A stretch of DNA of 64,000 bases. Source: Planctomycetota bacterium (GTDB taxonomy: Bacteria > Planctomycetota > UBA1135). Shown piece after piece: positions 7,550-24,779 of this stretch; within the stretch, counting starts at the first letter, position 1, and each line of letters begins with the position of its first letter. Below the pieces are notes generated by a model, which searched no databases, was not told where the DNA came from, and saw only the letters and a program-made list of their open reading frames with translations. A program made the position numbers and the translations under genes. The stretch covers positions 250,758 through 314,757 of the forward strand of contig JAAESM010000050.1 of the NCBI GenBank assembly GCA_024229395.1, given 5' to 3'.

Positions 7550-7555
7550 CCTGAA

Positions 7556-8167
7556 TCAATCCGTGAACGAGTAGAGGTCGTCGTCGGTGTTGAAGTAGCC
7601 GTCTGGTCCAGCCGAGATGAGCTGAAAATCATTCGGCTCATGGAAGCTGTTGGTCACACTGCTGCGCTGTGCGAACACCACATCTTCTTCGAAGTAGTCA
7701 TCTTCACCAGCTAAGGCCACGCAGCCGTTCTCATCGGCATAGTGCAAGCTCTCGAAGTAAAGAATCGGGTTGCCCCATTCATCGCCGATCTCGAACAAAG
7801 CGCGCGTGCCGAGCATGGTCAGGTCGCGATTAGCCTCATCGCCATCGGTGTTGACCAGCCATTCTTGCGACGGGCGCGAGCCGGTGTACTTGGAATCGAA
7901 CAAGGCCAGAAAAAGTGCCTCGGCGTTGGCGTTCTTGGCATTCATGGCCACGCCTTTCATCAGGCGGTCATCGGGGTACTCGCCTTCTATGTTGCGGTAC
8001 TCGCGAATCATCGCCTCCAGCGAACGCAGCTTGGCTTGTGCCGCCTTGGTCTTGCTATCGCCGAAGATGTTGCCGCCGAAGCCAACGAACACGGCGCTCA
8101 ACACACCGATGATGACCAGCACGATCATCAACTCCAACAAGGTAAATCCGTTCGCTCTGTTTTTCAT
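7556..8167 (-). CDS. gspG: major pseudopilin, GspG-like
   Basis: The motif MKNRANGFTLLELMIVLVIIGVLSAV is a canonical prepilin N-terminus. The C-terminal SAGPDGYFNTDDDLYSF resembles the GspG Ca-binding tail. It is the first pseudopilin in the operon and has an ATGA overlap with the TPR gene at 8164-8167. Confidence 0.7.
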   Translation of the reverse strand: MKNRANGFTLLELMIVLVIIGVLSAVFVGFGGNIFGDSKTKAAQAKLRSLEAMIREYRNIEGEYPDDRLMKGVAMNAKNANAEALFLALFDSKYTGSRPSQEWLVNTDGDEANRDLTMLGTRALFEIGDEWGNPILYFESLHYADENGCVALAGEDDYFEEDVVFAQRSSVTNSFHEPNDFQLISAGPDGYFNTDDDLYSFTD

Positions 8168-10863
8168 TGCTGGGCAAAAATCATCTCGACGTTATCGATG
8201 CTGGCATTGACATCCAAGGCACCAGAAGTTGCGACGAACAAGCCGCATGCCATCCGCCCGGTCGGGTTACGCAAGTTCGAGACCTGCTCGGAAAACAGGA
8301 CCTCGTCGTTAAACCACACGGTCAGCAACGGTTGCGTGCCTTCGCGGTTGACGCTGAAACGCACCAAGCCACTCTCACCTTCACGCAACTGGAAACGCGT
8401 GACCACTGGCGGATCGACACGCGAGCCGCGCGACATTTCGTAAGTGATTTTGCTCTCGCGATCGCGGAAGACGCGGAAGTACCAAGTCTCCTTGTTGCGG
8501 TTCTGCAAGGCGATGTAAGCACCGGCCTCGCCACGGTGGCCACTACCGATGGTCAAATCGGTGGTGAAGTCACGGAAGGAAATACCGGGTACGGTGCGGT
8601 AGGCCTTGGTTTCACCGACGCCGGAGTGACGTCCGCTGATCCAGAAGGCACCATCTTCAAGGCGTGGCTCCACGCCCAAACGTGCAGCCTCTTGAGTATC
8701 CCAACCTGCACGCAATCGCTTGCCCTCGAAGGCATCGACCCATAGGCGCAACTTGGCATGCTCTTCAACCCGCGCTTGCCAGATCTGCGCGTATTCCGCT
8801 TGTGGATGCCCTTCGGTGTCACGCAAGCTGTCTTGCAAGTAAGCGAACTCGGCGATGGTGGCATCGAAATCACCCTCACGGTAATAGACCATTCCTTTGG
8901 CATTACGCGCGGCGTGCAGTTCGGCATTCATCGACAAGGCTTGGTCAAAAGAACCCATAGCCAACTCCAACTCACCCAAGGCAAGGAAGTTCAAGCCACG
9001 ACGCAAAGTCAGGCCAGCCCAAGCGGGTGCTGATTGCGAGCGCAGCACGCCCTCAGGGAACAACTCTTCCAAGCGGCGGAAAGCCACTTCGGCCTGCACT
9101 TGCGAACCATCGCTGTACAGCAAGGAGCTGAACTCGGCGAGAACTGCAGCACAGTTCGGCTGAATCCGAACCAAGGACTGCAGCTCTTCACGAGCAGCTT
9201 CACTGTCGCCATCGCGCGCCGCCCAGTTGGCCTTCAAGTAACGCGAGTAGAAGTGTTGCGGCGACAAGTCCAAGGCATCGGCCAGGGCGACATCGGCGAG
9301 TTCGCGCTCACCCATGCGGTCCAACCAGAAAGCCATCGCCGATAGCGCTGGAGCGGCATCGAATGGCTGAGCGGCAGCGGCGGCGCGCAAGTCACGAATG
9401 ACTTCACCGGCAGAACCACCGTCGGCGCCTTCGGAGATGCCTCGCAAGTACAACAAGGTGGCGTCGGTGCCGAACTCTTGCAGTGCCGACGTAGCTTGCT
9501 CGCTCGCTTCACTGAAGTTACCGGCCAGATAAGCGGCTGCGATTGCACCCCGACGTGCATTCAGACCTGCACTCTTATTGGTGTTTGCTGCACGTTCGGC
9601 TTCGGCGTAGGCCGTCGATGCGGCCGCCCAAGAACCGGAACGCAATGCTGCTTCGCCAAGCGCCAAGCTGTTGCGCAAGCCCGAGTTCGAGTTGCGATGC
9701 TTCTGCAAGCCCATGGCGCGTTCGAGCAGGTCACGGCCTTCCGCAACACGATCGCTATCCAAGAACAAGATACCCAGCTCCAACAACGGCGCTGGATCTC
9801 CATCATTGAGATCTGCTGCAGCCTGAAGCTGTGGCTCCGCCACTTCATCAAGATCAAGGCTGCGTAGGATCATGCCCATGCGCACGCGTGGTGCGCTGCG
9901 CTTGTCGAAACGGCCTTGCGGCACCTCGATGCCGAAGTCTTCGACCTGCAGCGGCAGGCGATCGCCGCTCAAGGTGGCGTACAAAGCGAAGGCGCGGTCC
10001 AAGTCGAAGGTACGCTCCCACACCTCACCGAGCAACATCCAGTTGTCGATGTCATCCTGATCCAAATTGACGCTGGCGATCGCTAGCTCTTCGGCGTAGA
10101 CAAAGGCACCTGGCACGGCCAAGCCTTGGTCCAACAACCAACGCACGTAGTCGCGCAAAGGAGCGATGCGCGAAGGTGACAGGCGTGCGCGCTGCTCACG
10201 CACTCCGAGTTCTACCTCGTTATGGAGGTTCTCAGCGAATCCAAAGGTGGTGTATTCCTCGGCAGTGAATGGGCGCAAGCCAAAACGCTCGGTACCGGTG
10301 CGTGGGTTGACCTCTTGGAACTGCAGGGTTTCGCCCTTCTTGTAGTCATAACGGTTTTCACCAACCAAGTGGCCGTAGAGAATCGTCAACGGATCGAGAC
10401 GCACCCAATCGTAAGAAGCCTTGTAGCCGTCGGCTTCGTCTTGGAAGACGCTGGCTAGGTCTTCATCGCTGCTGCCCGCGGTGTCTTCTACCGTGCCAGC
10501 ATCGACCAAGTCATTCAAGTCACCCAACAACGATGGGGCCAATTGGAACAGATGCTCACTCCAATAGCTCGGACCGGAATCCGGCATCGGTGGAGGCATC
10601 AACACGGCAAGTGGTGCCAACTGCGGGTCTGGCAACGGCAATGGCTCCAAAGGCTCATCGGCGGCCGGGCGCTTGAACAAGTCACGTCCGCCTGGACCAC
10701 TTCCCAAGGACAACACCGGGTCCTCGGAACCCATGCGGAATTCTTCAAGAGCTTGCGGGTTCGGCGTGCGAGCTTTGCGCGGCGCCTTTTCCTGCAACAA
10801 ACTGTAGGTCATCAAGCCGAGAATCAGCAAGACCACCACGAACATGATTGGTTCTCTTTTCAC
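8164..10863 (-). CDS. membrane-anchored TPR-repeat protein (899 aa) with a C-terminal jelly-roll-like domain
   Basis: N-terminal TM helix IMFVVVLLILGLMTYSLL. The long central region has Ala/Leu-rich 34-aa-type repeats (AFALYATL..., ALGEAALRSGSWAAASTAYAEA..., NAKGMVYYREGDFDATIAEFAY). The C-terminal ~200 aa is beta-rich (WYFRVFRDRESKITYEM...LLTVWFNDEVLF). Confidence 0.7.
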   Translation of the reverse strand: MKREPIMFVVVLLILGLMTYSLLQEKAPRKARTPNPQALEEFRMGSEDPVLSLGSGPGGRDLFKRPAADEPLEPLPLPDPQLAPLAVLMPPPMPDSGPSYWSEHLFQLAPSLLGDLNDLVDAGTVEDTAGSSDEDLASVFQDEADGYKASYDWVRLDPLTILYGHLVGENRYDYKKGETLQFQEVNPRTGTERFGLRPFTAEEYTTFGFAENLHNEVELGVREQRARLSPSRIAPLRDYVRWLLDQGLAVPGAFVYAEELAIASVNLDQDDIDNWMLLGEVWERTFDLDRAFALYATLSGDRLPLQVEDFGIEVPQGRFDKRSAPRVRMGMILRSLDLDEVAEPQLQAAADLNDGDPAPLLELGILFLDSDRVAEGRDLLERAMGLQKHRNSNSGLRNSLALGEAALRSGSWAAASTAYAEAERAANTNKSAGLNARRGAIAAAYLAGNFSEASEQATSALQEFGTDATLLYLRGISEGADGGSAGEVIRDLRAAAAAQPFDAAPALSAMAFWLDRMGERELADVALADALDLSPQHFYSRYLKANWAARDGDSEAAREELQSLVRIQPNCAAVLAEFSSLLYSDGSQVQAEVAFRRLEELFPEGVLRSQSAPAWAGLTLRRGLNFLALGELELAMGSFDQALSMNAELHAARNAKGMVYYREGDFDATIAEFAYLQDSLRDTEGHPQAEYAQIWQARVEEHAKLRLWVDAFEGKRLRAGWDTQEAARLGVEPRLEDGAFWISGRHSGVGETKAYRTVPGISFRDFTTDLTIGSGHRGEAGAYIALQNRNKETWYFRVFRDRESKITYEMSRGSRVDPPVVTRFQLREGESGLVRFSVNREGTQPLLTVWFNDEVLFSEQVSNLRNPTGRMACGLFVATSGALDVNASIDNVEMIFAQQ

Positions 10864-11642
10864 TGCAGGTCCTCCCCTTCTTGCGGCGCGGGAAGGGCGC
10901 CAACTCCAAACTCAAGAAGCAGTTTCTGCTCCATACGCTTCTCATTTCGCGGCAAGACTTCCAAACCCATTAGCCCCAATGGACGCCCGGCTTGTTGTTC
11001 GGCCAGCAGCGCGTTCAAAAACGGGGCGATACTGGTGCGCGCGAAAGTTACCTCCAAGGTAATCGGCGTGATGTCCAACGGCGAAACGTTGCGACCACTC
11101 CGACGCGAACGCTTTTGTGCGATGCGGATCTTGTCGACCTCGGAGGCTCCGAAATCCACTGCCAAGTGCACGACACGATCGACCACATCCAAACCGCGCA
11201 ACACGCGATCGATTTGCTGCGGTTGCGATGGCGATACCGGTGGCAAGCCAAGGGAATCATCGACTTCACAGTTGCGTCGCAAAGCCCAACCGATCAGTTC
11301 GTCACGCATCTCACCTGTCAGCGAGATGTAATGCTGTGCTGCCGATCCTCCAGGTGGAACCTGAAAGCGTTCGCGGAAGGCCGGCAGATTGCGCTCAGCC
11401 AACAGCTCATTGCGATCCTGCAACATGCTCAAGCGCTCTTTCAATTCGGAGACTTGATTGGCTGCATAAAGGTTGTTGCTTGCCATCGTTCGCGAGGCTC
11501 TCGAAATCGAGATCCGCGACCTGCTCAAGCGATCCTTGGCGCCGCCGCCGGTGAAGGCGAGCAGGATGAAGAACACGACCAGTCCACCGGCCATGCCCAT
11601 GATGAAACGACGATGCGTTTGCCAGAATGCGTCAAAGTTCAT
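10860..11642 (-). CDS. PilO/GspM-like inner-membrane assembly protein
   Basis: A single N-terminal TM helix (IMGMAGGLVVFFILLAFTG) is followed by a coiled-coil-like stretch (VSELKERLSMLQDRNELLAERN) and a ~150-aa periplasmic domain. It lies immediately after the PilM-PilN fusion, with ATGA overlaps at both ends. Confidence 0.45.
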   Translation of the reverse strand: MNFDAFWQTHRRFIMGMAGGLVVFFILLAFTGGGAKDRLSRSRISISRASRTMASNNLYAANQVSELKERLSMLQDRNELLAERNLPAFRERFQVPPGGSAAQHYISLTGEMRDELIGWALRRNCEVDDSLGLPPVSPSQPQQIDRVLRGLDVVDRVVHLAVDFGASEVDKIRIAQKRSRRSGRNVSPLDITPITLEVTFARTSIAPFLNALLAEQQAGRPLGLMGLEVLPRNEKRMEQKLLLEFGVGALPAPQEGEDLQ

Positions 11643-13288
11643 TGCATGTCCTCCTCGCCTTCTTCAGAGGGATTTCGTTCTTCGAGGAGTTGAGCGCGCA
11701 TTGACCATTCCAGGACCTTGCCGCGCGGATTCGAACTGGGTTGCAGGTAAGTCTTATCTGCAAGCATGCCTTCCAACGCGACAACGAACACGCCGAAAGC
11801 GGAACTTGCCGCACGCACGTCGTCTTCGGCGCGACCTTCGACCTGCAGAATCGGAACGGGTTGATCCTCTCGCTCCCATTCCTTGCCATCGGTCATCGTC
11901 ACACGCACCTGCTCGACCCACAAGCTGTCAGGCAAGGAAGTACGCAGGTGATCGATGAACTCCGCAGCACTGCGGTTGACGGCGAAACGCGCTTCCAAGT
12001 CGCGGTAAAGCAACTCTTGTTCGCGAATCTGTTCGAGCAACTCCACGGCTTCGGAGTTACTGGTATCGAGAGCCTTCTGGGTGCGCTTGGTGGCAGCCGA
12101 TGCGGTGGCCGCTTCATCAGCCAGCCCACCCATCACGATGAAGTTCACCGCCAAGAAAATCACCGCGGCAGCACCCATCAGGATGTTGAAGATGCCACGC
12201 TCGGCAAAGGCCTTCTTCTTGCGCGCGGCGGCAGTCAGGATCTCCAGGGCGTAGAGGTCTGGGTCGGCGGCACTGAGGGCCAATCCGAGCGCGACCGCAG
12301 CGCCTGGGCCATCGGCTTCAAGCTGATCGGCTTCGTCTTCGGGCAACTCGCTTGGATCGATCATCTCTGCCGGGTTCCAAACACTGACCGGCACGCGCAT
12401 GCGATCGTTCAAGAACTCCACCAGGCCGTTGGCGTTGGCGCCGCCGCCTGTGAGCAGTACGCGATCCAAGTTCAACTCGCTCAAGCGCGTTTGTGCCTTA
12501 CACAAAGTGACCACACCACCAAGCAAGGTAGGCAGGCTTTCGTACAGAGGCAGCAGTGGGCGCGTGACGCGTTCCGCATCGGTGCCCAATCGTTGGCCGG
12601 TAGCCAGGCGCAAATCAAGGTGCTTATGGATTAAGCCCTTGGCGCGTTCGCCATCAATGCCAAGTTGCGCTGCCAAAGTCTGGTCGCGCTTCTCCAAGCT
12701 GGTCGTGACCGAACGTGCGAAGTACAGGTCGGTGCCATTGACCAACGCTAGGTCCAAGGTGCCTTTGCCAAGGCTGGCGATCAAGGTGGTGGATTGCTCG
12801 TGATCCCCCAAGGCCAGGTAACAGTTGTACAAGGCAATCGCGTTCGGTGAGAAAGCCTTGACGGCAATCCCGGGAATGCCACTCATGGTCTCATCGAGCA
12901 GGTCTTCGCGCACCAGGCTCAACAGCATGGTGTCCTCGTCGTCGAGCCCCTTCGGCACCGGCAACAAGTTGTAGGACGACGCCATCGAGGAACCGGAACG
13001 GCCTTCGATCTCGCGGATCTCAAAATCCATCAGGCGCTCCAGGCGCCAGTCCTCTACCGCCGGCACAGGCAAGTAGCGCATCATCAGGTCGGCGCCGGTC
13101 AAACCGACGTGCACCGAGCCGGAGCGTTTGGCACCACTGAATACCGCACGCGCGGCTTCCACTGGAGTTTCGCCACCTTCTGGGGCAGCGGCCAAGTAGC
13201 GCTTCAGGGTGTGGGCTCCCTTGCGCGAGTCCACCATGGCAAGGCGGACCAACGAGTGTCCTAAATCAATTCCGCAGCCACTAGCCAT
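11639..13288 (-). CDS. PilM-PilN fusion (GspL-like actin-fold assembly ATPase-like protein plus TM/periplasmic part)
   Basis: MASGCGIDLGHSLVRLAMVD is a PilM/FtsA-like phosphate-1 motif, and LLTGGGANANGL is an actin-fold ADENOSINE-like motif. These are followed by a TM helix (IFNILMGAAAVIFLAVNFIVMGGL) and a PilN-like coiled coil. The start was moved to the ATG at 13288, which overlaps the FHA gene stop (TGATG). Confidence 0.65.
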   Translation of the reverse strand: MASGCGIDLGHSLVRLAMVDSRKGAHTLKRYLAAAPEGGETPVEAARAVFSGAKRSGSVHVGLTGADLMMRYLPVPAVEDWRLERLMDFEIREIEGRSGSSMASSYNLLPVPKGLDDEDTMLLSLVREDLLDETMSGIPGIAVKAFSPNAIALYNCYLALGDHEQSTTLIASLGKGTLDLALVNGTDLYFARSVTTSLEKRDQTLAAQLGIDGERAKGLIHKHLDLRLATGQRLGTDAERVTRPLLPLYESLPTLLGGVVTLCKAQTRLSELNLDRVLLTGGGANANGLVEFLNDRMRVPVSVWNPAEMIDPSELPEDEADQLEADGPGAAVALGLALSAADPDLYALEILTAAARKKKAFAERGIFNILMGAAAVIFLAVNFIVMGGLADEAATASAATKRTQKALDTSNSEAVELLEQIREQELLYRDLEARFAVNRSAAEFIDHLRTSLPDSLWVEQVRVTMTDGKEWEREDQPVPILQVEGRAEDDVRAASSAFGVFVVALEGMLADKTYLQPSSNPRGKVLEWSMRAQLLEERNPSEEGEEDMQ

Positions 13289-15063
13289 CAGTTCACCTCC
13301 TTCAGCCAAGCGGCAAGTACGGGGTAAGAAGTCGTCAGCGCACCTTGCAGACGTTCGCGGTATTCCGAGGCAGCCTCTTGGCTACCTTGTGCGGCTTGTT
13401 CCGCGCCGATCTCCAAGTCAGCGGCAAGCGCGGTGGCTTGCGGTTCGACGACCGTTCCGGGATAACGCGAAGCCAAGTCGCGTGCATCGTTGGCGAGTTG
13501 CGACATCAGCGAACCAGCACCCACGAAGACCGCGCCACTTGCTTGAATCTGCAAGTTCGCCAAGTCTGCGCGGCCGCGCTCCAAAGCCTCTTGTGAACGC
13601 AACAAAGCCTCTTGCACCTTCAACTCATCGAGTGGCAGATCGCGCAGTAGTTCCGCAGCGGATGCCAATAGTTGACGATCGTTTCCTTCACGCTCGGCGC
13701 GGGTGATCGCTTGAGAAAGACGTGCCGCTTGGGTCATGGCCTCGGCCAAATCCCAATGCAGATGGAATGGCTCAGTAGTGGTCAGACTCGCGCCTCCATC
13801 TTCAAAGCGAATACTGCTGGCTTGATCCAAGGTCAGCAGCAGGCGCGTGGCGCCACCGCCGAGCAAGATGCCAGGGCTGGATTCGACGATCACGCCAGGA
13901 GCGAGACCGACTGGGCCGCCGTCGGCCAACAGCAGGAAGGCGCCTGCTTCCAACAAATCGCCAGAGGCACTGAAGACCACGCTGGCTTCACCATTCGGAG
14001 TGAAGAGCAAGCCGCCGGTTTCGTCACTCCAAGTGCCGTTCTGGCCGCGCGCGGTCAGCAAAGCACCAGAAGAGTTCGACATCATCAAGTTGGCGCCTTC
14101 ATGCAGTGCCGTGCCTATTGGCGACGAGACTTTCTGCGGCGCGCGGGAAGTGGTTTCCACGCTCAACTCGCTAAGACTGCCTTGGCCTTCCAAACGAAGC
14201 GCAATCTGAAACCATTCAGCATCTGCGGGCAGGCTCAAGGTCACGTTGCCTGCTGCTAGGTCGCCGCCTTCCCATGTGCCGACGGGCTGGCTGCTCTCTT
14301 CGCCTTTACCCCAGCTGATCTGAGGAAAGACTTGGTTGCCCGAAACGCTAGCCGAGATCTCTAAAGCAGTATCCATCATAGAGAAGTTACGCCCCAAACG
14401 CGCGGTCGAACGACCACTGCCTGCACTCAAGCGCCCTTCTTCGATGGTTGTGCCTTTACTCAGACTCCATGCCTCTGGTTCTTGGAAATCTCCAAGGCCA
14501 TCGATGGCATCGAGGGCTTGGCTACTGACGCCGCCGTTGGCAGCTGCCGTATTGCCGCTGCCTGGATTGCCTTCTTCAGCGGCACCTCCGCGACCGAAGG
14601 TCCACCAAGCGCCGCCGCCTGCGGCCAGGACCAACACCACGCCAAGCGCCATCTGCAGTGGACCACCTTTGCGCTTACTACTCATGGCGGCCTCGCGGGC
14701 GCGGCGATGGATATCAGAATCATCGTCTTCCACCTCGCTGCTGGCCGTGCTGGACGAGCTGGACGCTCCGCCGCCCTCTGGAACAAGGCGCAATACGCAC
14801 TTGCCGAGTTTAATCTCGCTGCCTGGGAACCATTCGCCCTCGGCGACTTGCACGCCGCCGGACCAGGTACCGTTGGTGGAGCCGAGGTCGCGGAAGCGGA
14901 TTTCGCCCGCCGCGCTGACCGTCAGCTCGAGGTGTCGGCCTGAAACGGATTCAACACCCAAGACGCGGCTGTTCGAAGCAGCACGACCAAGGGTATGTGT
15001 TCCAACGCCCAGATCAAAAATCTGACCGCTTTCAGGACCACTTAGGATCTCAATTTGAACCAT
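13288..15063 (-). CDS. FHA-domain protein with a central TM helix and a large periplasmic domain; first gene of the pseudopilus operon
   Basis: The N-terminus MVQIEILSGPESGQIFDLGVGTHTLGRAASNSRVLGVESVSGRHLELT...FRDLGSTNGTWSGG carries the FHA signature (GR...S..H......D.GS.NGT). A Ser-rich linker follows, then a TM helix (LQMALGVVLVLAAGGGAWW). I prefer the ATG at 15063 (cat 15061-63) over the TTG at 15099. Confidence 0.7.
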   Translation of the reverse strand: MVQIEILSGPESGQIFDLGVGTHTLGRAASNSRVLGVESVSGRHLELTVSAAGEIRFRDLGSTNGTWSGGVQVAEGEWFPGSEIKLGKCVLRLVPEGGGASSSSSTASSEVEDDDSDIHRRAREAAMSSKRKGGPLQMALGVVLVLAAGGGAWWTFGRGGAAEEGNPGSGNTAAANGGVSSQALDAIDGLGDFQEPEAWSLSKGTTIEEGRLSAGSGRSTARLGRNFSMMDTALEISASVSGNQVFPQISWGKGEESSQPVGTWEGGDLAAGNVTLSLPADAEWFQIALRLEGQGSLSELSVETTSRAPQKVSSPIGTALHEGANLMMSNSSGALLTARGQNGTWSDETGGLLFTPNGEASVVFSASGDLLEAGAFLLLADGGPVGLAPGVIVESSPGILLGGGATRLLLTLDQASSIRFEDGGASLTTTEPFHLHWDLAEAMTQAARLSQAITRAEREGNDRQLLASAAELLRDLPLDELKVQEALLRSQEALERGRADLANLQIQASGAVFVGAGSLMSQLANDARDLASRYPGTVVEPQATALAADLEIGAEQAAQGSQEAASEYRERLQGALTTSYPVLAAWLKEVN

Positions 15064-15186
15064 GTGGGAAAGGTGCGTCCCGGCGTGACTCCGGGACAAG
15101 GGAGTCTAGGCCACCCCGACTTCACGGGCAAACCGGGCAGCTTATAGATAGGGCCAACCCCGGCGACAGTAACCTGTTACGTGCCA

Positions 15187-15909
15187 ATGCGATTTTTCTT
15201 CCTTGCCACAGCACCGCAGAGCACCGACGGACCTTGGAACCCTGGTCCGGAGCTCGGCCGCCATCTGCGTGCTCTGAGATTTCAGCCCGGCGACAAGCTG
15301 CTGCTGCTACCGCCAAGCGGAGATGCCATCGTTGCCGTATTCCAGAGTCCCAAGTTGGTGGAGCTAGAGGGCACTCAGCCTCGGCCCGTCCTACCCTTAC
15401 TGGGTCTGACCTTGGCCAGCGCTTGGCCCAAGGGTTCACGCGGCGATGAGCTTGTGCGGCGGGCCACAGAGAGTGGCGTAACCCATTTAGCACCAATATC
15501 TTGCGAACGCAGCGTGGTTGGCCGAGGAGACTTCAGCCCCTCCCGCTTGCAGCGCTGGTCCAAGATTGCGGCAGAGGTTTGCCAACAAAGCCGACGCCCT
15601 GAGCCGCCCCAAATCAGCTCCAATCCAGTGCCATTGGCGGAGATTCGCAGCCTTGCCCCCGACGCACACCCGATTGCTTTGGTGCCCGGAACTTGGCCGT
15701 TGAGCATGGAATTGGACCTGCACCAACCCAGCTCGGTGCTGATTGCGATCGGTCCAGAAGGTGGTTTCAGCCCCGCCGAAGAAACCATACTGCGGGATTT
15801 GGGCTTCAGTTTCTGCGGTTTGGTCCCGACGATTTTGCGCATTGAGGCCGCTGGTCCGCTGGCGGCAGGAATTTGCCAACATCACTTTTTGTCGCGCCAG
15901 GGTCAGTAA
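15187..15909 (+). CDS. rsmE: 16S rRNA (uracil1498-N3)-methyltransferase RsmE
   Basis: The N-terminus MRFFFL and the C-terminal IAIGPEGGFSPAEETILRDLGFSFCGLVPTILRIEAAGPLAAG match the RsmE SPOUT knot motif (GPEGG...E...LG.RILR.ETA). The ATG at 15187 is preferred over the GTG at 15181. Confidence 0.85.
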   Translation: MRFFFLATAPQSTDGPWNPGPELGRHLRALRFQPGDKLLLLPPSGDAIVAVFQSPKLVELEGTQPRPVLPLLGLTLASAWPKGSRGDELVRRATESGVTHLAPISCERSVVGRGDFSPSRLQRWSKIAAEVCQQSRRPEPPQISSNPVPLAEIRSLAPDAHPIALVPGTWPLSMELDLHQPSSVLIAIGPEGGFSPAEETILRDLGFSFCGLVPTILRIEAAGPLAAGICQHHFLSRQGQ

Positions 15910-15939
15910 ACAGCTCCCTCGACTCAGCGCTTGCTGCAA

Positions 15940-16542
15940 TTAGAGCCAGCCTTGCTCCAAGAATGAGGTGAAGCGCCCCGCGCCCACCACCACATGGTCG
16001 AGCAGCTCAATGCCCAATAGACGCCCGGCGCGCTGCAGCCTGCGGGTGGTGGTGCGATCATCGGCCGAAGGCTCGGGATCGCCGGAAGGATGGTTATGCG
16101 CCACCACGATGGCAGCAGCACGGCGCAGCAACGCGGGTGCGAAAACCTCACGCGGATGGACCAAAGACGAACTCAGCGTGCCGCGGCTGACCTCTTGTTC
16201 ATGCAACAGCCGCCCTTTGGTATCCAAGTACAGCACGTAGAAGCATTCGCAGCGCAAATGTGCCAGCCGTGGAGCCAAGTAGTGATAGACATCCTCTCCA
16301 CCGCGGACCGGCTCGCCTAAATGTTGATTGGCCCGCGCCACCCTGCGCCCAAGTTCGAAGGCTGCCGCCACCTGAAAGGAAGCCTTGGCTCCACAACCTA
16401 GTTGCTCCTGTAACTCGGCTGGCTCCATACCTGCAGCGCGCCAAGGCTCGAACTGCAAAGGCAGTTGCACTTGGAAAGGCTTCAACAGCTCTTGATTGCT
16501 CCATTCCTCGAGCTGCGACTTATTAACCTGAATGTTCGACAT
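15940..16542 (-). CDS. radC: RadC-family JAB/MPN domain protein
   Basis: The JAMM motif VVAHNHPSGDPEPSADDRTTTRRLQRAGRLLGIELLDHVVVG is present. The internal ATG at 16542 (cat 16540-42) removes the overlap with the upstream gene. Confidence 0.8.
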   Translation of the reverse strand: MSNIQVNKSQLEEWSNQELLKPFQVQLPLQFEPWRAAGMEPAELQEQLGCGAKASFQVAAAFELGRRVARANQHLGEPVRGGEDVYHYLAPRLAHLRCECFYVLYLDTKGRLLHEQEVSRGTLSSSLVHPREVFAPALLRRAAAIVVAHNHPSGDPEPSADDRTTTRRLQRAGRLLGIELLDHVVVGAGRFTSFLEQGWL

Positions 16543-16583
16543 ACTGCAGCGATGACGGTCCAGCTGCGCCGCGGTCACGGTCT

Positions 16584-17933
16584 TTATAGTTGTTCGCGAA
16601 ACAACATATCGGCGGCGGCAAGGTCTACGCCGAAGGTCAACAGCCAAGCGTCTTGAAAGGAGCGCCCCTCCAAGTTGAGAAATAGATTCGCCATCACGGA
16701 TTCGCTGTACTCCTGGCGCAACCAGGTGCAGAAGGCCAAGGCATAGGCATAAGCCTCGGTGACTTGATCGCGGTCGGTCCAGGTAGTCCAGTTGCCATCC
16801 ATCTGCTCCAGGCTCAACTTCGGGGATCCGTCGGCGAAGTAAGAAGCGGCGGCGTGGCTATCACGCCCTTCTGCCGACTGCGCCATGCCTTCATGCAACC
16901 AAGTCGGCAATGGCGTGCCCATGGTGTGCAAGACCGCGTGGGTTAACTCATGGCGCAGCGTGCGGCGAATCGAAGCCTTCTGGCGTTCGTAGTCCTCGAT
17001 CACGATGCGCACGCGGCCATCAAAAAGGGCAGCAGACCACTCTGGCGCCTGCCAACGGTAACTTTCGGCATCCAACCAAATCACCAACAAGCGATCACGC
17101 GGCTGCACGCCCAAAACGTCGACCACATCCTGCCACGCATCTTCAAGGTCGCGGTTCAAGTCGGTCAAAGAATCGACAATGGCGCGGTCTTGGGGGTTGT
17201 AGCGACTATCGAAATGTGCGGTGGCATCGGTGAGATAATTCTGGAAGGCATCGCGCTCGGCATGCAGTTGATCGGCGCGATCCTGCAGATTTGCATTTTC
17301 GGGATCGAGTGCCAAGGCTTGATCAATCAAGCTGACCGATTGATCCAACTCCCCTTCGACGGCGGCCAAGTCGGCGCGTTTGCGCAACAGCAAGGCATGT
17401 TCGATTCCCAAGTCCAAGGCTTCATCGAGTACGGCCTTGGCGGCGTCGCGGTCACCTTGCCCCAGATAGAGGTGCGCCAACCAATATGGCCCGCTCGGGT
17501 CTTCGGTCTGCAGGGCAACGGCGCGTTTTAAGGTTTCGATCGCCGCACGATGGTCGCCTCCCTCTTGTTGTTGGAGCGCCAACGAGACTAAGGCAGTCGC
17601 CAAGTTCAGCTTCAAGGTGGCATGTTGCGGCGCAAGCGCAAGCGCGGCTTCAAAGGCTTCGATTGCGGCTAGCGACTCTTCCTTATCTAAGGCCGCCAAA
17701 CCCTTGCGGTTGAGTGCGAAGACTTCATCCGGCAAGGCATCCTGACTGTTGAACTCGGTAGCGACCGGCGCTTGTTCCTTGGGTTGCTTGGGGTGAACCT
17801 CGGTACGCTGCAGGCCGCCATTGCTGATCGGCGGCTCGACGGTCTCTTCGTTTGGTGCGGGCGATATCCACAACCAAACACCTCCACTACCGAGCAATAG
17901 CACGACGAACAGGAGGGTGAGGAGACGATTCAT
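16584..17933 (-). CDS. secreted/anchored TPR protein with a C-terminal peptidase-MA-like HExxH domain
   Basis: Signal/anchor MNRLLTLLFVVLLLGSGG. TPR-like repeats are present (AIEAFEAALALAPQHA..., AHLYLGQGDRDAAKAVLDEAL). LRHELTHAVLHTMGTPLPTWLHEGMAQSAEG matches the Peptidase_MA_2 pattern HExxH...W..EG.A. The start ATG at 17933 overlaps the upstream stop (ATGA). Confidence 0.6.
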   Translation of the reverse strand: MNRLLTLLFVVLLLGSGGVWLWISPAPNEETVEPPISNGGLQRTEVHPKQPKEQAPVATEFNSQDALPDEVFALNRKGLAALDKEESLAAIEAFEAALALAPQHATLKLNLATALVSLALQQQEGGDHRAAIETLKRAVALQTEDPSGPYWLAHLYLGQGDRDAAKAVLDEALDLGIEHALLLRKRADLAAVEGELDQSVSLIDQALALDPENANLQDRADQLHAERDAFQNYLTDATAHFDSRYNPQDRAIVDSLTDLNRDLEDAWQDVVDVLGVQPRDRLLVIWLDAESYRWQAPEWSAALFDGRVRIVIEDYERQKASIRRTLRHELTHAVLHTMGTPLPTWLHEGMAQSAEGRDSHAAASYFADGSPKLSLEQMDGNWTTWTDRDQVTEAYAYALAFCTWLRQEYSESVMANLFLNLEGRSFQDAWLLTFGVDLAAADMLFREQL

Positions 17934-18625
17934 GACAACGGAGGTAAGCCACCGCGCTCGGCCCACCCTTCCTTGCGGTCAGCGAGCAAACGTGGCCAAG
18001 CGGCGCTGGACCAAGGATAACCGCTGTCGCTGGCAAGGTTTTGAAGCTGCTGTCCAAGCTCCACCAGCAACTGCGGGTCGAAGATGTGACGCTCGACACC
18101 GCTGGCCAAGAACAAGTCGATCTCAAGACTGTTAGCCCAACGGACCGTCTCACCTGCTTCCGTCCGCTCCACCAGCTCATGCTCTTGTCGCTGCAACAAG
18201 GCATCCAAGACTTGCGCAACTTGCGGCAAGACCTGCAGGGCCATCTCAGGATCCGGGAAGCGTTGAATGCCTGGGCAATACTGCGCAGCGCGATGCAAGG
18301 CCTGTGGGTCATCCAACAGCTCCGGCCAATAAGGAAAGCTGCGGCATTGCTCAGGACGTTGCTGGTAAATCGAACAACGGTTTTGGCCATCCAGCAGGAT
18401 GCAGCGGCCGTCGGCACGTTCGCGCAAAGAAAGGCGCTCGCCGACTTGCTTCACGTTCAAATCCACAAAGGCTTGAGTGCTAGTGCCGGTCAACTGAGCG
18501 TATTCTGCAAGGTCACTTGCTTTGATCCAGACATGACCGGTGCCCACGCGGCAGCAATTGCCCGAACGCTGACAGGAAAAGTAAAACGGCGGCGTGGAAT
18601 TTGATTCCGAAGACGTGGCCATCAA
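17930..18625 (-). CDS. YkgJ-family cysteine-cluster (Zn/Fe-binding, UPF0153) protein
   Basis: CQRSGNCCRVGTGHVWI ... GRCILLDGQNRCSIYQQRPEQCRSFPYW is the CxxxxxCC ... C.(F/L)L....C.IY..RP..CR.(F/Y)P signature. Confidence 0.7.
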   Translation of the reverse strand: MMATSSESNSTPPFYFSCQRSGNCCRVGTGHVWIKASDLAEYAQLTGTSTQAFVDLNVKQVGERLSLRERADGRCILLDGQNRCSIYQQRPEQCRSFPYWPELLDDPQALHRAAQYCPGIQRFPDPEMALQVLPQVAQVLDALLQRQEHELVERTEAGETVRWANSLEIDLFLASGVERHIFDPQLLVELGQQLQNLASDSGYPWSSAAWPRLLADRKEGWAERGGLPPLS

Positions 18626-18657
18626 TCAGTGCGACTTGGGAACACGAATGCCACAGG

Positions 18658-19665
18658 TTATCGCGACAAGTGAGCGCGAATGTCTTCGATCAACTCGGTC
18701 GGCGTGGAGTAACGCACATCACGATCCTTGGCCATCATTTTCTCGATGAAGAAGTGCAGCATAGGCGAGATACCAAGCCCCTTCAAAGCCGATCCTTTCA
18801 GGCTTTCCAGCACTTGCGCGCGCACCATCTCTTGGTCGTCCTCGGCACTAAAAGGCAGTTCGCCGATCACCAAGTGATAAAGAGTGGCACCCAGCGAATA
18901 GATATCAGCGCGGCCATCCAAGGACTCTTCGCCGCGCGCTTGTTCAGGCGCGAGATAAGCCGCAGTACCCAAGGTAGTACCGGCACCATGGGTGCCCTCC
19001 ATGCCTTCGCCGGCGAATCCCAAATCGATCAACTTGACAACACCGTTCTTGTCGATCATCACATTGCCAGGTTTCAAGTCACGATGAACCACACCACTGG
19101 CACGCATGCCCTCTAAGGCTTCGGCCACTTGCACGACGACCCTCAAAGCATCGACTTCGGAGAAGCGCTGCCCTTCGGCGAGCATCTCTTCCAAGGTGCG
19201 ACCAGGTACACGTTCCATCTCAAGGACGATCGTGTCCATGAAACGGAAGGCGCGATAACCACGCACAACACCAGGAACATCGAGATCCTTCAGCAGTTTG
19301 GCCTCTTGGGCAAAACGCTTGGCCGCGACCGGATCCTTTGCAAGGTTCGGGCGCAGGATCTTCAAGGCCACGCGTTTGAAATCCTTCTGGCGTTGCGCAC
19401 TGAAGACTTCTGCAGTAGCACCGGTGCCAAGCATGGCCTCTACCTTGAAACCAGGAATCTCCGGCTGGGTCATGGCCTTGGTCCTACGCAAATAATCAAT
19501 GCGTTGATCATCCCAATCGGTTACCGCACCAAGGGCATCATCAAAGGGAACCTCCTTAGCGGCTTCCATGACCAGCTGCGCCTGCTCACGTGGCAAGAAG
19601 CCACGGTGTACGAGTTGAACCAAGAAATCCTGATCCTGGTTTTGGGCGGGGTCGACAGCCGACAT
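18658..19665 (-). CDS. cytoplasmic Ser/Thr protein kinase (Hanks type), with no sensor or TM domain
   Basis: Glycine loop GTGATAEVF, VALKIL (catalytic Lys), HRDLKPGNVMI, KLIDLGFA (DFG-like DLG), and TAAYLAPEQ (APE). Confidence 0.9.
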   Translation of the reverse strand: MSAVDPAQNQDQDFLVQLVHRGFLPREQAQLVMEAAKEVPFDDALGAVTDWDDQRIDYLRRTKAMTQPEIPGFKVEAMLGTGATAEVFSAQRQKDFKRVALKILRPNLAKDPVAAKRFAQEAKLLKDLDVPGVVRGYRAFRFMDTIVLEMERVPGRTLEEMLAEGQRFSEVDALRVVVQVAEALEGMRASGVVHRDLKPGNVMIDKNGVVKLIDLGFAGEGMEGTHGAGTTLGTAAYLAPEQARGEESLDGRADIYSLGATLYHLVIGELPFSAEDDQEMVRAQVLESLKGSALKGLGISPMLHFFIEKMMAKDRDVRYSTPTELIEDIRAHLSR

Positions 19666-19806
19666 GAAGCTGACATCCTATATCGGCGCTTCCAATGTGC
19701 GAACTTAAGCCGCTCGGCTGAGATTTCTGCGACTCAAGAAACAGTTACGACTTTCCCGAAAAGACCATGACGGCGGGCAACAACCCAAACCGCGGTCCAT
19801 CTTCAA

Positions 19807-21087
19807 ATGTCTAACAGCGCAGGAATCGTCTACAAATACTTCGACCTGATTGATGGCTTCATCAGGGTTCGGATACTCTCCCAGGAGGAATCACTACCCG
19901 CCTTGCAGAAAGGCGTCGGTGAGCCCCCTAGTCGCCGCGAATACCGTCGCATGGTGGTGGAAAGCTGTGTGGTAGGCGTCGCCGACGACGTCTTCCCGAA
20001 GGTGCATGCCATCTATCCTGAAGACACCGTCGCCGCCGAGGATCTGCTCTACCAGATCGTCATCGATGTGAACCCCAACCTTGAGATCCATTCTGTGGCG
20101 CTGCCTGCCGAATCTGAAGAAGGCGTTCAGGCCGAGGACAATGAAGAGTTCTTCCAGCGCGCTGCATCGTTGGAGAAGAATGTGTTGCAGGAATTGGTTG
20201 GCCAAGACGAGGCTGTGGCAAAGATCTGCCGCGCTGTGCGCAAATCGGCATCGGGGATTGCCGATCCATTGCGCCCCATCGGTTCTTTCATGCTGGTCGG
20301 GCGTACCGGTACCGGCAAGACCGAGTTAGCCAAATCGCTGGCACGCCATCTCTTCGCCAGCAACAACTTGATCCGTATTGACTGCTCCGAATTTGCGCTC
20401 CCACACGAGACCGCCAAACTGATCGGAGCCCCCCCTGGATATGTTGGGCATAACGACGGCGGCACCTTGACCGAGGCACTGATGCGTGATCCGAAAGCTG
20501 TGATCCTGTTCGATGAGATCGAAAAGGGGCACGAGAAGCTGCACAACATGTTGCTGCAGATCCTCGATGAAGGTCGTTTGACCGACAGCAAAGGTAAGAC
20601 CGTGGTCTTCAACCAGGCTTTGGTATTGATGACGTCGAACGTAGGTACTGCGGATTACCGCACTGCTTCGAATCGCGTCGGCTTTGGTCGCGATGCTGGT
20701 CTCGATCAGCATGACTTCCATGCCATCACCGACGCTGCCCTGCGCGCCAACTTCAAGCCTGAGATGCTCAACCGCTTGGATGGCACGCTGACTTTTCGCG
20801 CCTTGGATAATGACGATTGCACGCGCATCGCGCAGATGCAGTTGCAGAAACTGAACGCGCGTATGCATAACGCCGGCATTGACCTGCGCTGGTCTAAGAG
20901 TTTGGCTGCTGCTGTGGCTGAAGCCGGTTATTGCGAGGAATATGGTGCACGTGAAGTGCGTCGAGCGTTGGCAAGGATGGTCGAAGAACCGTTATCCAGC
21001 GCGATTCTCGATGGCGAGTTCTCTCCGGGAACGACGGTCTACGCCGGCTGGCGTGGTGGCAAGTTGTCGCTGCGTGCTGCCGCCTGA
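19807..21087 (+). CDS. stand-alone ClpA/ClpB D2-type AAA+ ATPase with an unrecognised ~130-aa N-terminal domain
   Basis: LVGQDEAVAKICRAVRKSASGIADPLRPIGSFMLVGRTGTGKTELAKSLA...IRIDCSEF...LIGAPPGYVGH...VILFDEIEKGH...ILDEGRLTDSKGKTVVFNQALVLMTSNVG is the Clp D2 module (Walker A/B, sensor). A ClpB_D2-small-like C-terminus follows. There is no D1 domain and no Clp N domain. Confidence 0.8.
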   Translation: MSNSAGIVYKYFDLIDGFIRVRILSQEESLPALQKGVGEPPSRREYRRMVVESCVVGVADDVFPKVHAIYPEDTVAAEDLLYQIVIDVNPNLEIHSVALPAESEEGVQAEDNEEFFQRAASLEKNVLQELVGQDEAVAKICRAVRKSASGIADPLRPIGSFMLVGRTGTGKTELAKSLARHLFASNNLIRIDCSEFALPHETAKLIGAPPGYVGHNDGGTLTEALMRDPKAVILFDEIEKGHEKLHNMLLQILDEGRLTDSKGKTVVFNQALVLMTSNVGTADYRTASNRVGFGRDAGLDQHDFHAITDAALRANFKPEMLNRLDGTLTFRALDNDDCTRIAQMQLQKLNARMHNAGIDLRWSKSLAAAVAEAGYCEEYGAREVRRALARMVEEPLSSAILDGEFSPGTTVYAGWRGGKLSLRAAA

Positions 21088-22549: not shown

Positions 22550-22565
22550 GCCCTAAAGCGGGCGC

Positions 22566-24649: not shown

Positions 24650-24779
24650 GGCAGACGGTGATTTTAGCGGAACCTCTGAGAAATCCAGCACTTGGAAGTC
24701 CAGGATTGCCGATAAAGAAGGCAAGATTCCCGGCTCCCGGTGCGTCACAACGACGGCACCCTACGCCCCGACAACCACC

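What the first reader, a model, noticed from the sequence alone, without database searches (positions are those of the whole stretch)
13288..19665. FHA-TM protein heading the pseudopilus operon, with a minimal Hanks kinase 3.6 kb away: possible phospho-threonine gating of assembly
The first operon gene encodes a cytoplasmic FHA domain, a Ser-rich linker, one TM helix and a ~430-aa periplasmic domain. The topology is reminiscent of FHA-containing basal-body or scaffold proteins in other secretion machines, such as T3SS YscD/CdsD-type proteins and T6SS Fha with PpkA. The nearest kinase (18658..19665) is a bare catalytic domain with no sensor, as expected for a dedicated partner. FHA control of a T2SS/T4P-like pseudopilus is not a standard feature.
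Basis: inference. Interest (0 to 1): 0.6.

Follow-up and report, generated by a model that had tools for sequence, protein, structure and literature searches.

The report
FHA membrane subunit heading planctomycete pseudopilus operon
An uncultured marine planctomycete begins its pilus/secretion-type operon with a membrane protein that has an intact phosphothreonine-reading domain inside the cell, but the nearby kinase is in a separate operon and is only a candidate partner, not a shown one.

Summary
The gene at 13288-15063(-) encodes 591 aa: a cytoplasmic FHA domain, a variable linker, one TM helix and about 410 periplasmic residues. It overlaps the start of a PilM-PilN fusion gene. It has its own conserved promoter-like site, so it is the first gene of the pseudopilus operon.

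The pThr-pocket residues (GR, SxxH, S-T-N-G) are invariant in 54 family members down to about 20% identity. The fold is closest to GarA/OdhI/FhaA, not YscD. The periplasmic part models as two jelly-rolls plus a helical bundle. It has no ring-building motifs and no GspC/PilP fold.

The kinase at 18658-19665(-) has all catalytic residues, no TM helix and a conserved, unclassified 70-aa N-terminal region. It heads its own unit (kinase, CxxCxxCC, TPR/peptidase-MA, RadC). An opposite-strand rsmE separates that unit from the FHA gene.

Kinase and FHA operon stay 2-12 kb apart across six families (26 kb in one genome). However, the syntenic block also carries rsmE, radC, a ClpB-like AAA+ gene and, in one lineage, pgi. 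The link is broken in at least three lineages.

So pThr reading by this machine is well supported, while this kinase as its dedicated writer is only plausible (about 0.3).

The parts
13288..15063 (-). FHA-TM gene (591 aa from ATG 15063; the open frame reaches TTG 15099). It is the first gene of the pseudopilus operon.
   Evidence: Pfam FHA and Yop-YscD_cpl. Collection start at M13. Full-length orthologues (single match) in 20 of the 24 other family genomes, pieces at contig ends in the other four. AF2 model pLDDT 86.
14773..15063 (-). Cytoplasmic FHA domain (res 1-97 of the 591-aa protein) with an intact pThr pocket: G26 R27, S41 xx H44, S62 T63 N64 G65.
   Evidence: Residues invariant in 41 orthologues and in 54 family representatives (T63 at 90% or more). 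Best fold matches are GarA/OdhI/FhaA at rmsd 1.2-1.6 A.
14590..14664 (-). Single TM helix, preceded by the conserved basic juxtamembrane helix HRRAREAAMSGKRKGGP.
   Evidence: Hydropathy scan; conserved segment in the alignment.
13291..14517 (-). Periplasmic module: two jelly-roll beta-sandwiches followed by a six-helix bundle. No Pfam model covers it.
   Evidence: AF2 pLDDT 93.9, pTM 0.82. Only weak CBM32/Asp2/ephrin-LBD/SPRY-type fold hits. No Pfam hit even at E=10. All 54 family members matched only the two FHA models.
15077..15131 (-). Promoter-like site of the FHA operon: -35 TTGCCC (15131-15126), 17-nt spacer, -10 TAGACT (15108-15103). A 5'-UTR hairpin follows: GTCCCGG-N7-CCGGGAC (15097-15077).
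   Evidence: Sequence. Of 17 upstream regions compared across 13 genera of the family, TA[GA]AC[TC] lies 21-51 nt before the ATG in all 17, a TTTGCC/TTGCC-type -35 box precedes it in about 12, and a downstream hairpin with different stem sequences (-7 kcal/mol or stronger) follows in 14. It is below the threshold of the consensus scanner.
11639..13309 (-). PilM-PilN fusion (GspL-like). Its start (TTG 13309 or ATG 13288) overlaps the FHA gene's TGA (13290-13288).
   Evidence: Pfam PilM_2; TM at about res 368-400; TGATG overlap; always follows the FHA gene.
10860..11642 (-). PilO/GspM-like bitopic protein, assigned by position and topology only.
   Evidence: N-terminal TM; no Pfam hit; syntenic in 17 of the 19 related loci that reach its position.
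8164..10863 (-). 899-aa membrane-anchored TPR protein.
   Evidence: TPR Pfam hits; N-terminal TM; syntenic.
266..8167 (-). Five pilin-like genes: 7556-8167 (GspG-like), 6545-7549 (LamG-bearing), 1617-6548 (1643 aa), 709-1620 and 266-712.
   Evidence: N_methyl motif in four of them, T2SSG and Laminin_G_3 hits.
15181..15909 (+). rsmE (16S rRNA methyltransferase). It is divergent from the FHA gene and convergent with radC, and it separates the two minus-strand units.
   Evidence: Pfam Methyltrans_RNA, E 1e-31. Same opposite-strand position in 12 of 15 loci and in L034-L037, L040 and L041.
15940..16647 (-). RadC-like JAB-domain gene, last gene of the kinase unit.
   Evidence: Pfam RadC, E 6e-45.
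16584..17966 (-). Exported TPR plus peptidase-MA-like protein.
   Evidence: TPR and Peptidase_MA_2 hits; N-terminal hydrophobic segment.
17930..18625 (-). CxxCxxCC (YkgJ-type) Zn/Fe-chelating protein, 32 nt after the kinase gene.
   Evidence: Pfam PF03692, E 7e-12. Its called gene overlaps the kinase gene's end by 4 nt in L036.
18658..19665 (-). Soluble Hanks-type Ser/Thr kinase (335 aa): conserved N-terminal region 1-72 and kinase domain 74-322.
   Evidence: Pkinase, E 1e-47. K102, E121, H194-R195-D196, N201, D214-L215-G216, T234 and P240-E241 are invariant in 21 orthologues. No TM helix. A clear orthologue is present in 40 of the 41 genomes searched, with only a weaker 40%-identity match in G026.
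19675..19680 (-). Conserved TAGGAT box 9 nt before the kinase ATG. It is a possible -10 element of a near-leaderless transcript.
   Evidence: ATAGGAT, or the shorter TAGGAT, stands just before the predicted kinase start in the window and in L030, L024, L028, L032 and L026. Inference only.
19807..21087 (+). ClpB-D2-type AAA+ gene, divergent from the kinase. It is the kinase's most persistent neighbour.
   Evidence: AAA_2 and ClpB_D2-small. It is adjacent to the kinase in 15 of the 19 related loci inspected, including L039, where the FHA operon is absent.

Best explanation
The 591-aa protein is a dedicated bitopic inner-membrane subunit of a planctomycete type IV filament machine (T2SS/T4P-like). 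It is made together with the PilM-PilN (GspL-like) and PilO-like platform proteins.

Its cytoplasmic FHA domain is a canonical phosphothreonine reader. A TM helix ties it to a periplasmic module of two lectin-like jelly-rolls and a helical bundle. The likely mechanism is that a Ser/Thr kinase marks a cytoplasmic partner, and FHA binding to that pThr then permits or positions platform and pseudopilus assembly. The partner could be the kinase's own activation loop, the PilM domain, or the GspE/GspF-type motor encoded elsewhere. This would work in the manner of Fha/TssL/PpkA in T6SS.

Shown here: the domain architecture, the intact pThr pocket under strong selection, the operon position, translational coupling and a separate promoter. 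Inferred: that pThr binding gates assembly.

The writer kinase acts in trans and is not identified. The soluble 335-aa kinase 3.6 kb upstream is the leading candidate by persistent synteny, but it is not a demonstrated or obligate partner (about 0.3).
For: - Architecture.
- pThr residues G26, R27, S41, H44, S62, N64 and G65 are invariant in 54 representatives at a mean column identity of 25%; T63 is kept in 90% or more.
- FHA fold nearest to pThr-dependent GarA/OdhI/FhaA, at rmsd 1.2-1.6 A and 28-31% identity. YscD/PscD match at 19-22% identity.
- The gene always abuts PilMN where both are on one contig.
- TGATG stop/start overlap.
- Conserved -35/-10-like site and UTR hairpin upstream.
- The family is large: about 120 of the best 150 representatives (50%-identity clusters) match over the full length, and 1046 proteins reach E<=1e-30. 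All 54 sampled carry FHA.
- The kinase has every catalytic residue and activation-loop Ser/Thr.
- The kinase orthologue lies 2-12 kb upstream, on the same strand, in 18 family genomes and in five genera of other families.
- Only about five Hanks kinases were detected in this genome, which is 87% complete.
- Precedent: Fha binds pThr on the membrane subunit TssL to activate T6SS (PMC3953482).
Against: - No phosphorylation or binding data exist.
- No conserved Ser/Thr lies in the FHA protein's own linker, and PilMN has only one conserved Thr, T71.
- No PP2C phosphatase was found among the roughly 40 ORFs scanned in and next to the window.
- The motor and secretin genes are elsewhere, so the machine's completeness is inferred.
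- For the kinase: it has a separate operon and promoter; the synteny also covers housekeeping genes; and the link is broken in L034/L035, L039 and G037.
Confidence: 0.6

Rival explanations
1. One reading: the 335-aa kinase 3.6 kb upstream is the dedicated writer for this FHA protein. In this reading it is a PpkA-like partner kept nearby for that purpose.
For: - The orthologue is clearly separable from paralogues: 240-727 bits over the full length, against 181 bits or less and kinase-domain-only matches for paralogues (G012 and G014 hold only contig-end pieces; G026 has no clear orthologue).
- It is on the same contig and strand, 2.4-7.2 kb from the FHA gene, in 18 family genomes (26 kb in G018), and 3.8-12.4 kb away in G028, G036, G031, G033, G029 and G039 of other families.
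- It is also linked in L036, L040 and L041.
- It is soluble, sensor-less and catalytically intact.
- It is retained in genomes of 2.0-3.4 Mb that keep only a handful of strong kinase matches.
Against: - It is in a different transcription unit, with rsmE on the opposite strand between, and both units have their own conserved upstream motifs.
- Its tightest neighbours are the CxxCxxCC gene (overlapping it in L036) and the divergent AAA+ gene.
- Where the block breaks, the kinase stays with AAA+/SurA-like genes and not with FHA (L039). The FHA operon also persists without the kinase unit (L034/L035; G037).
- The same block carries rsmE, radC and, in L041, pgi and a Zn-peptidase gene, so proximity can be inherited gene order.
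- The lineage's other FHA-kinase pair is directly adjacent (C33).
Confidence: 0.3
2. The neighbouring kinase serves its own neighbourhood, which has an envelope or proteostasis flavour: CxxCxxCC protein, exported TPR/peptidase-MA, JAB-type RadC, and the divergent ClpB-D2 AAA+ and SurA-like PPIase genes. The FHA subunit is served by another kinase, for example one of the 737-911-aa kinases. One of these lies 14-16 kb from a GspE-secretin pair on contig C4.
For: - Compact kinase unit: 32-nt gap between kinase and CxxCxxCC here, and 4-nt overlaps of the called genes (kinase/CxxCxxCC, CxxCxxCC/peptidase-MA) in L036.
- AAA+ is adjacent to the kinase in 15 of the 19 related loci inspected, and the SurA-like gene lies just beyond it in the window, L039 and L041.
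- Other kinases are at C4:224099, C73, C33 and C64.
- GspE is at C4:207509 and a secretin at C4:209485.
- A conserved adjacent FHA(687)-kinase(911) pair is on C33, and the same arrangement recurs in G012, G019, G020 and G024.
Against:
- The functional theme of the kinase's neighbourhood is my own reading of the Pfam names.
- Order-wide retention of the kinase near the FHA operon still needs explaining.
Confidence: 0.35
3. The FHA domain is a phospho-independent structural module, as in T3SS SctD/YscD, and no kinase is involved.
For: The Pfam Yop-YscD_cpl model scores slightly better than FHA. The topology matches SctD.
Against: Every pThr-contact residue is invariant across 54 divergent members. 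The fold is closer to pThr-dependent FHA domains than to YscD/PscD. The periplasmic part lacks ring-building motifs.
Confidence: 0.08

Closest known systems
T6SS threonine-phosphorylation pathway (PpkA / PppA / Fha1-TagH; in Agrobacterium, Fha binds pThr on TssL; PMC3953482)
   Same: A canonical FHA domain is associated with the membrane complex of a secretion nanomachine. A Hanks kinase is encoded nearby. The proposed logic is that pThr recognition licenses assembly.
   Different: Here the FHA domain is fused to a bitopic membrane subunit of a type IV filament platform. There are no T6SS genes. The kinase is soluble and in a separate operon. No PP2C phosphatase was found in the window.
T3SS inner-ring protein SctD (YscD / PrgH / MxiG; chlamydial CdsD, phosphorylated by PknD per my own knowledge)
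   Same: Topology is N-terminal cytoplasmic FHA-type domain, one TM helix, then a large periplasmic domain. There is a Pfam PF16697 match.
   Different: The periplasmic part is jelly-rolls plus a helical bundle, not three ring-building motifs. The pThr pocket is intact, unlike YscD-type domains. The gene sits in a pilin/PilM operon, not a T3SS cluster.
GspC / PilP, the third bitopic component of T2SS/T4P assembly platforms (XcpP-type GspC carries a C-terminal coiled coil; my own knowledge)
   Same: It is encoded with GspL-like (PilM-N) and GspM-like (PilO) genes. It is a single-pass protein with a beta-rich and then a helical periplasmic region, and it could occupy the same place in the platform.
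   Different: No HR-domain/PilP fold appeared among the 50 listed fold matches. The periplasmic part is much larger. The cytoplasmic FHA domain has no counterpart in GspC/PilP.
Myxococcus Kil Tad-like apparatus (PMC8460266) and the Sulfolobus archaellum network ArnA/ArnB-ArnC/D (PMC5300886)
   Same: FHA-domain proteins and Ser/Thr kinases are associated with type IV filament-class machines.
   Different: In Kil the FHA domain is on the ATPase and on soluble proteins. In Sulfolobus the FHA protein ArnA belongs to the regulatory network that controls archaellum expression (PMC5300886). Neither has an FHA-bearing bitopic platform subunit.

Membership tests
Canonical pThr-binding FHA domain (PF00498) | Conserved Gly-Arg (beta3-4 loop), Ser-x-x-His (beta4-5 loop) and Ser/Thr-Asn-Gly (beta6-7 loop), plus the 11-strand sandwich fold | tested here: met
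   G26, R27, S41, H44, S62, N64 and G65 are invariant and T63 is kept in 90% or more. Pfam E 4e-9. Fold rmsd 1.2-1.6 A to GarA/OdhI/FhaA.
Canonical pThr-binding FHA domain (PF00498) | Demonstrated phosphopeptide binding | not testable with these tools
   Needs ITC or pull-down with the purified domain.
T3SS SctD / YscD | Cytoplasmic FHA-type domain followed by a single TM helix | tested here: met
   PF16697, E 8e-12; TM helix.
T3SS SctD / YscD | Periplasmic ring-building motifs (alpha-beta-beta-alpha-beta, three copies) | tested here: not met
   The model shows two jelly-rolls and a six-helix bundle at pLDDT 93.9. No SctD/PrgH chain is among the 50 listed fold hits.
T3SS SctD / YscD | Encoded in a T3SS gene cluster | tested here: not met
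   The neighbours are PilM-N, TPR and pilin-like genes.
T6SS threonine-phosphorylation pathway | Kinase, PP2C phosphatase and FHA protein encoded within a T6SS cluster | tested here: not met
   No T6SS or PP2C family hit among the ORFs scanned. The kinase is in a separate unit. Genome-wide PP2C was not tested because the genome search closed.
GspC / PilP | HR-domain/PilP beta-sandwich that contacts the secretin N0 domain | tested here: inconclusive
   No GspC/PilP chain in the 50 listed fold matches and no Pfam hit. Contact with a secretin cannot be tested here.
Hanks-type Ser/Thr kinase (PF00069), active RD kinase | Gly-rich loop, VAIK Lys, alphaC Glu, HRD, DFG-type Asp and APE | tested here: met
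   G80, G82, K102, E121, H194-R195-D196, N201, D214-L215-G216 and P240-E241 are invariant in 21 sequences. Pkinase E 1e-47.
Type IV filament assembly platform (PilM-PilN-PilO / GspL-GspM) | Actin-like PilM domain with a PilN-type TM segment, a PilO-like bitopic partner, and prepilin-type subunits in one operon | tested here: met
   PilM_2 hit and TM helix. N_methyl motifs in four pilin-like genes. The PilO-like gene is assigned by position and topology only.
Type IV filament assembly platform (PilM-PilN-PilO / GspL-GspM) | Cognate ATPase, platform protein and secretin | tested here: inconclusive
   There are five strong T2SSE-family (GspE/PilT-type) ATPase matches and five secretin matches elsewhere in the genome, none in the window. 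Which of them serve this operon is unknown.

The most novel reading that the evidence does not exclude
The FHA-TM/jelly-roll/helical-bundle protein may be a new class of transmembrane coupling subunit for type IV filament machines, widespread in Planctomycetota. It would link a cytoplasmic phosphothreonine signal to a periplasmic lectin-like module. In that case filament assembly would be licensed only when a Ser/Thr-kinase signal and a periplasmic glycan or cell-wall cue coincide. The conserved soluble kinase with its unclassified N-terminal domain would be the cognate writer.
Probability: 0.2. Interest if true: 0.65.

Novelty: new variant of a known kind. Interest (0 to 1): 0.45.

Why it matters
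FHA- and kinase-based control is established for T6SS and proposed for Tad-like systems and archaella. I found no paper describing it for a T2SS/T4P-type platform subunit.

This family is large, has no Pfam model for two thirds of its length, and keeps a perfect pThr pocket. It is therefore a clean entry point for asking how Planctomycetota, which carry many Ser/Thr kinases, control envelope machines. A cultured relative, 'Planctomycetes bacterium Poly30', carries an orthologue of the kinase. Two 7.3-7.6-Mb genomes of the same order carry the whole block. The question is therefore open to experiment.

The kinase part of the claim remains a hypothesis. The synteny evidence alone cannot separate function from inherited gene order.

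Tried and rejected
1. SctD/YscD membership was rejected on the periplasmic fold.
2. GspC/PilP fold: no support.
3. I suspected from memory that the kinase's N-terminal FLxLLVHRGxL motif was a GspE_N/MshEN-type module. A profile search of PDB gave nothing below E=0.7. Pfam scans of 21 members gave no T2SSE_N hit and only stray hits. The idea was dropped.
4. The metagenome-contig scan with the family alignment used generic FHA motifs. It returned 80 loci of unrelated FHA proteins, none with PilMN-type neighbours, so it was useless for the linkage test.
5. The search for homologous proteins restricted to the periplasmic region reached only close relatives.
6. The sigma-70 consensus scanner found no promoter. 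The promoter-like site came from comparing orthologous upstream regions.
7. A search for conserved Ser/Thr as candidate phospho-sites gave only PilMN T71 and kinase T62, T84, T234 and T261. This is too thin to name a site.
8. The literature searches found no description of this protein or of an FHA-headed T2SS/T4P operon.
The phylum-wide profile, the other kinase/FHA/GspE loci of this genome and transcript evidence could therefore not be obtained.
Full report
**What is there.** The window is part of contig C50 of a 3.1-Mb, 87%-complete MAG. Close relatives are labelled Planctomycetota. The same order includes large genomes, and a kinase orthologue comes from 'Planctomycetes bacterium Poly30'.

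On the minus strand lies a tight operon:
- the FHA-TM gene (13288-15063)
- a PilM-PilN fusion (11639-13309)
- a PilO-like bitopic gene (10860-11642)
- an 899-aa TPR protein (8164-10863)
- five pilin-like genes (7556-266)

Upstream of the FHA gene are rsmE on the plus strand (15181-15909) and then a second minus-strand unit. That unit holds RadC (15940-16647), a TPR/peptidase-MA exported protein (16584-17966), a CxxCxxCC protein (17930-18625) and the kinase (18658-19665). A ClpB-D2-type AAA+ gene (19807-21087) is transcribed divergently from the kinase.

**Observation check.** Pfam finds FHA and Yop-YscD_cpl at the N-terminus. One TM helix follows a strongly basic juxtamembrane segment, and about 410-420 residues lie beyond it. 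The kinase domain covers residues 74-322 of 335, and the kinase has no TM helix. The description is therefore right, with three corrections:
- The start is ATG 15063 (591 aa), as called for the collection copy of this protein, P0001, and as in all orthologues.
- The Ser-rich linker is lineage-specific and disordered.
- The kinase has a conserved 72-residue N-terminal region with no match in Pfam or PDB.

**The FHA protein.** An AF2 model from 41 homologues (pLDDT 86) shows the FHA domain (1-97), a disordered linker, a helix plus TM segment, and a folded periplasmic region.

The FHA fold is closest to pThr-dependent domains such as GarA, OdhI and FhaA (rmsd 1.2-1.6 A, 28-31% identity). T3SS YscD/PscD match at 19-22% identity.

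The residues that contact phosphothreonine in canonical FHA domains are G26, R27, S41, H44, S62, T63, N64 and G65. They are invariant in 41 orthologues. In 54 representatives at a mean column identity of 25%, T63 is kept in 90% or more and the others stay invariant. That is the signature of a working pThr reader, unlike the degenerate SctD-type domains.

A separate model of the periplasmic part (pLDDT 93.9, pTM 0.82) has two jelly-roll beta-sandwiches and a six-helix bundle. Fold search gives only weak CBM32/Asp2/ephrin-LBD/SPRY-type matches. It gives no ring-building motifs, GspC or PilP among the 50 listed matches. No Pfam model covers this part.

A full HMMER scan of 1.84 billion cluster representatives shows a large family. 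About 120 of the 150 best hits match over the full length, some with an extra N-terminal roughly 100 residues (double-FHA forms). In all, 1046 proteins reach E<=1e-30.

**Operon head.** The FHA stop overlaps the PilMN start (TGATG). I compared the 220 nt upstream of the FHA start in 17 regions from 13 genera of the family. This shows a conserved -35-like TTTGCC/TTGCCC, a 17-18-nt spacer, a -10-like TAGACT 21-51 nt before the ATG, and then a hairpin whose stem sequence differs between genera. In the window these lie at 15131-15126, 15108-15103 and 15097-15077.

The FHA gene therefore heads its own transcription unit, divergent from rsmE. The kinase gene has its own conserved ATAGGAT motif 9 nt before its ATG.

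**Conservation of FHA with the pseudopilus genes.** The protein was found in all 24 other family genomes searched. It is full length (one match) in 20 and lies in pieces at contig ends in four. It directly abuts PilMN wherever both are on one contig. In other families of the order, and in distant metagenomic lineages, a 640-750-aa version occupies the same position. The first 'would refute' condition is not met.

**The kinase.** All catalytic residues are invariant: the Gly-rich loop, K102, E121, HRD 194-196, N201, DLG 214-216 and APE. The activation loop always carries Ser/Thr before the G-T of the P+1 loop. The kinase is thus a typical RD kinase that can create pThr sites.

Its orthologue separates cleanly from paralogues in 40 of the 41 genomes searched; G026 shows only a weaker 40%-identity match. 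Combining the coordinates:
- It lies on the same contig and strand, 2.4-7.2 kb upstream of the FHA gene, in 18 family genomes, and 26 kb upstream in G018.
- The remaining six family genomes have the two genes on different, mostly short, contigs. For G004 the contig demonstrably ends before the expected position.
- It is also linked (3.8-12.4 kb) in G028/G036, G031, G033, G029 and G039 of other families.

tblastn maps of 15 fetched loci show one block throughout: AAA+ <-> kinase-CxxCxxCC-peptidaseMA-RadC -> <- rsmE <-> FHA-PilMN-PilO-TPR-pilins.

**Why this does not establish partnership.**
1. The block contains genes with no conceivable link to a pilus machine (rsmE, radC). In L041 the synteny extends to the SurA-like gene, pgi and a Zn-peptidase gene, just as in the window at 21179-24748. 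Proximity can therefore be inherited gene order.
2. Insertions open the block between the kinase and the rest: 10 kb in G039, 5 kb in G023 and 2.7 kb in G017. In each case the kinase stays beside the AAA+ gene.
3. The link is broken in at least three lineages. L034/L035 have AAA+, rsmE and the FHA operon but no kinase unit within 10 kb. L039 has SurA-like, AAA+ and kinase genes followed by unrelated genes, with no FHA/PilM within 10 kb. In G037 the FHA gene has 21 kb of contig upstream, yet the kinase is on another contig. Of five lookups not pre-selected for linkage, three were linked.
4. The genome has a second FHA protein (687-aa frame) directly followed by a 911-aa kinase frame on C33. The same pair recurs in G012, G019, G020 and G024. 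That is what a dedicated pair looks like in this lineage.
5. No PP2C phosphatase was seen among the ORFs scanned.

Two points favour the link. The genome has only about five Hanks kinases. This kinase is soluble, sensor-less and universally retained. I put the dedicated-partner reading at about 0.3.

**Mechanism.** Best supported is a bitopic platform subunit, made stoichiometrically with the GspL-like and GspM-like proteins, that reads a cytoplasmic pThr mark. It is mechanically tied to a periplasmic lectin-like and helical module. It occupies the operon position of the third bitopic platform protein (GspC/PilP) but has a different fold.

By analogy with Agrobacterium T6SS, where Fha binds pThr on TssL to activate secretion (PMC3953482), pThr binding would license or position assembly. 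The pThr carrier is unknown. Candidates are the kinase activation loop, the PilM domain (its only conserved Ser/Thr is T71) or the ATPase. The motor and secretin genes lie elsewhere.

**Comparison and novelty.** FHA domains are known in T6SS (Fha/TagH), T3SS (SctD, CdsD), the Kil Tad-like system (PMC8460266) and the archaellum network (PMC5300886). I found no paper on an FHA-bearing platform subunit of a T2SS/T4P-type operon. This is a new variant of a known theme.

The scan's own notes show that the same FHA-headed operon has been reported repeatedly from other Planctomycetota genomes. Two first readers proposed the same kinase idea elsewhere. I treated these as leads only.

**Limits.** A phylum-wide presence and linkage profile, inspection of the other kinase/FHA/GspE loci of this genome, and transcript evidence are therefore missing.

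Noticed in passing
window 15077-15131 (-): A conserved promoter-like site (-35 TTGCCC, 17 nt, -10 TAGACT) lies upstream of the FHA gene. It is followed by a 5'-UTR hairpin whose stem sequence differs between genera while pairing is kept. The consensus scanner missed the site.
   Followed up: partly
window 19666-19680 (-): An ATAGGAT motif 9 nt before the kinase ATG is conserved in several genera (L024, L026, L028, L030, L032). The kinase mRNA may be nearly leaderless.
   Followed up: partly
window 18658-21087; L018-L041: The kinase and a ClpB-D2-only AAA+ gene form a divergent pair kept in 15 of the 19 related loci inspected. The pair is also kept where the FHA operon is absent (L039), and a SurA-like PPIase gene lies just beyond the AAA+ gene in the window, L039 and L041.
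   Followed up: partly
G000:C33:131850-134479 (outside the window): A second FHA protein (687-aa frame) is directly followed by a 911-aa kinase frame. The same adjacent pair recurs in G012, G019, G020 and G024. It is an alternative source of pThr signalling in this lineage.
   Followed up: no
G000:C4:207509-224851 (outside the window): A GspE-type ATPase (C4:207509) and a secretin (C4:209485) lie 14-16 kb from an 878-aa kinase frame (C4:224099). They may be the motor and channel for the pseudopilus operon. The locus could not be fetched.
   Followed up: no
L041 compared with window 21179-24748: Gene order from the Zn-peptidase and pgi genes through SurA-like, AAA+ and the kinase unit to the FHA operon is retained in a lineage whose kinase is only 47% identical. 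This is long-range synteny across unrelated functions.
   Followed up: partly
family-wide: Some family members (for example P0299, P0302, P0303, P0312, P0316) are 740-790 aa long and match from about residue 100 onward. This is consistent with a second N-terminal FHA domain.
   Followed up: no
window 40287-42659 (+): A GAF-GGDEF-EAL protein (c-di-GMP turnover) lies 25 kb from the operon. No link to the operon was examined.
   Followed up: no
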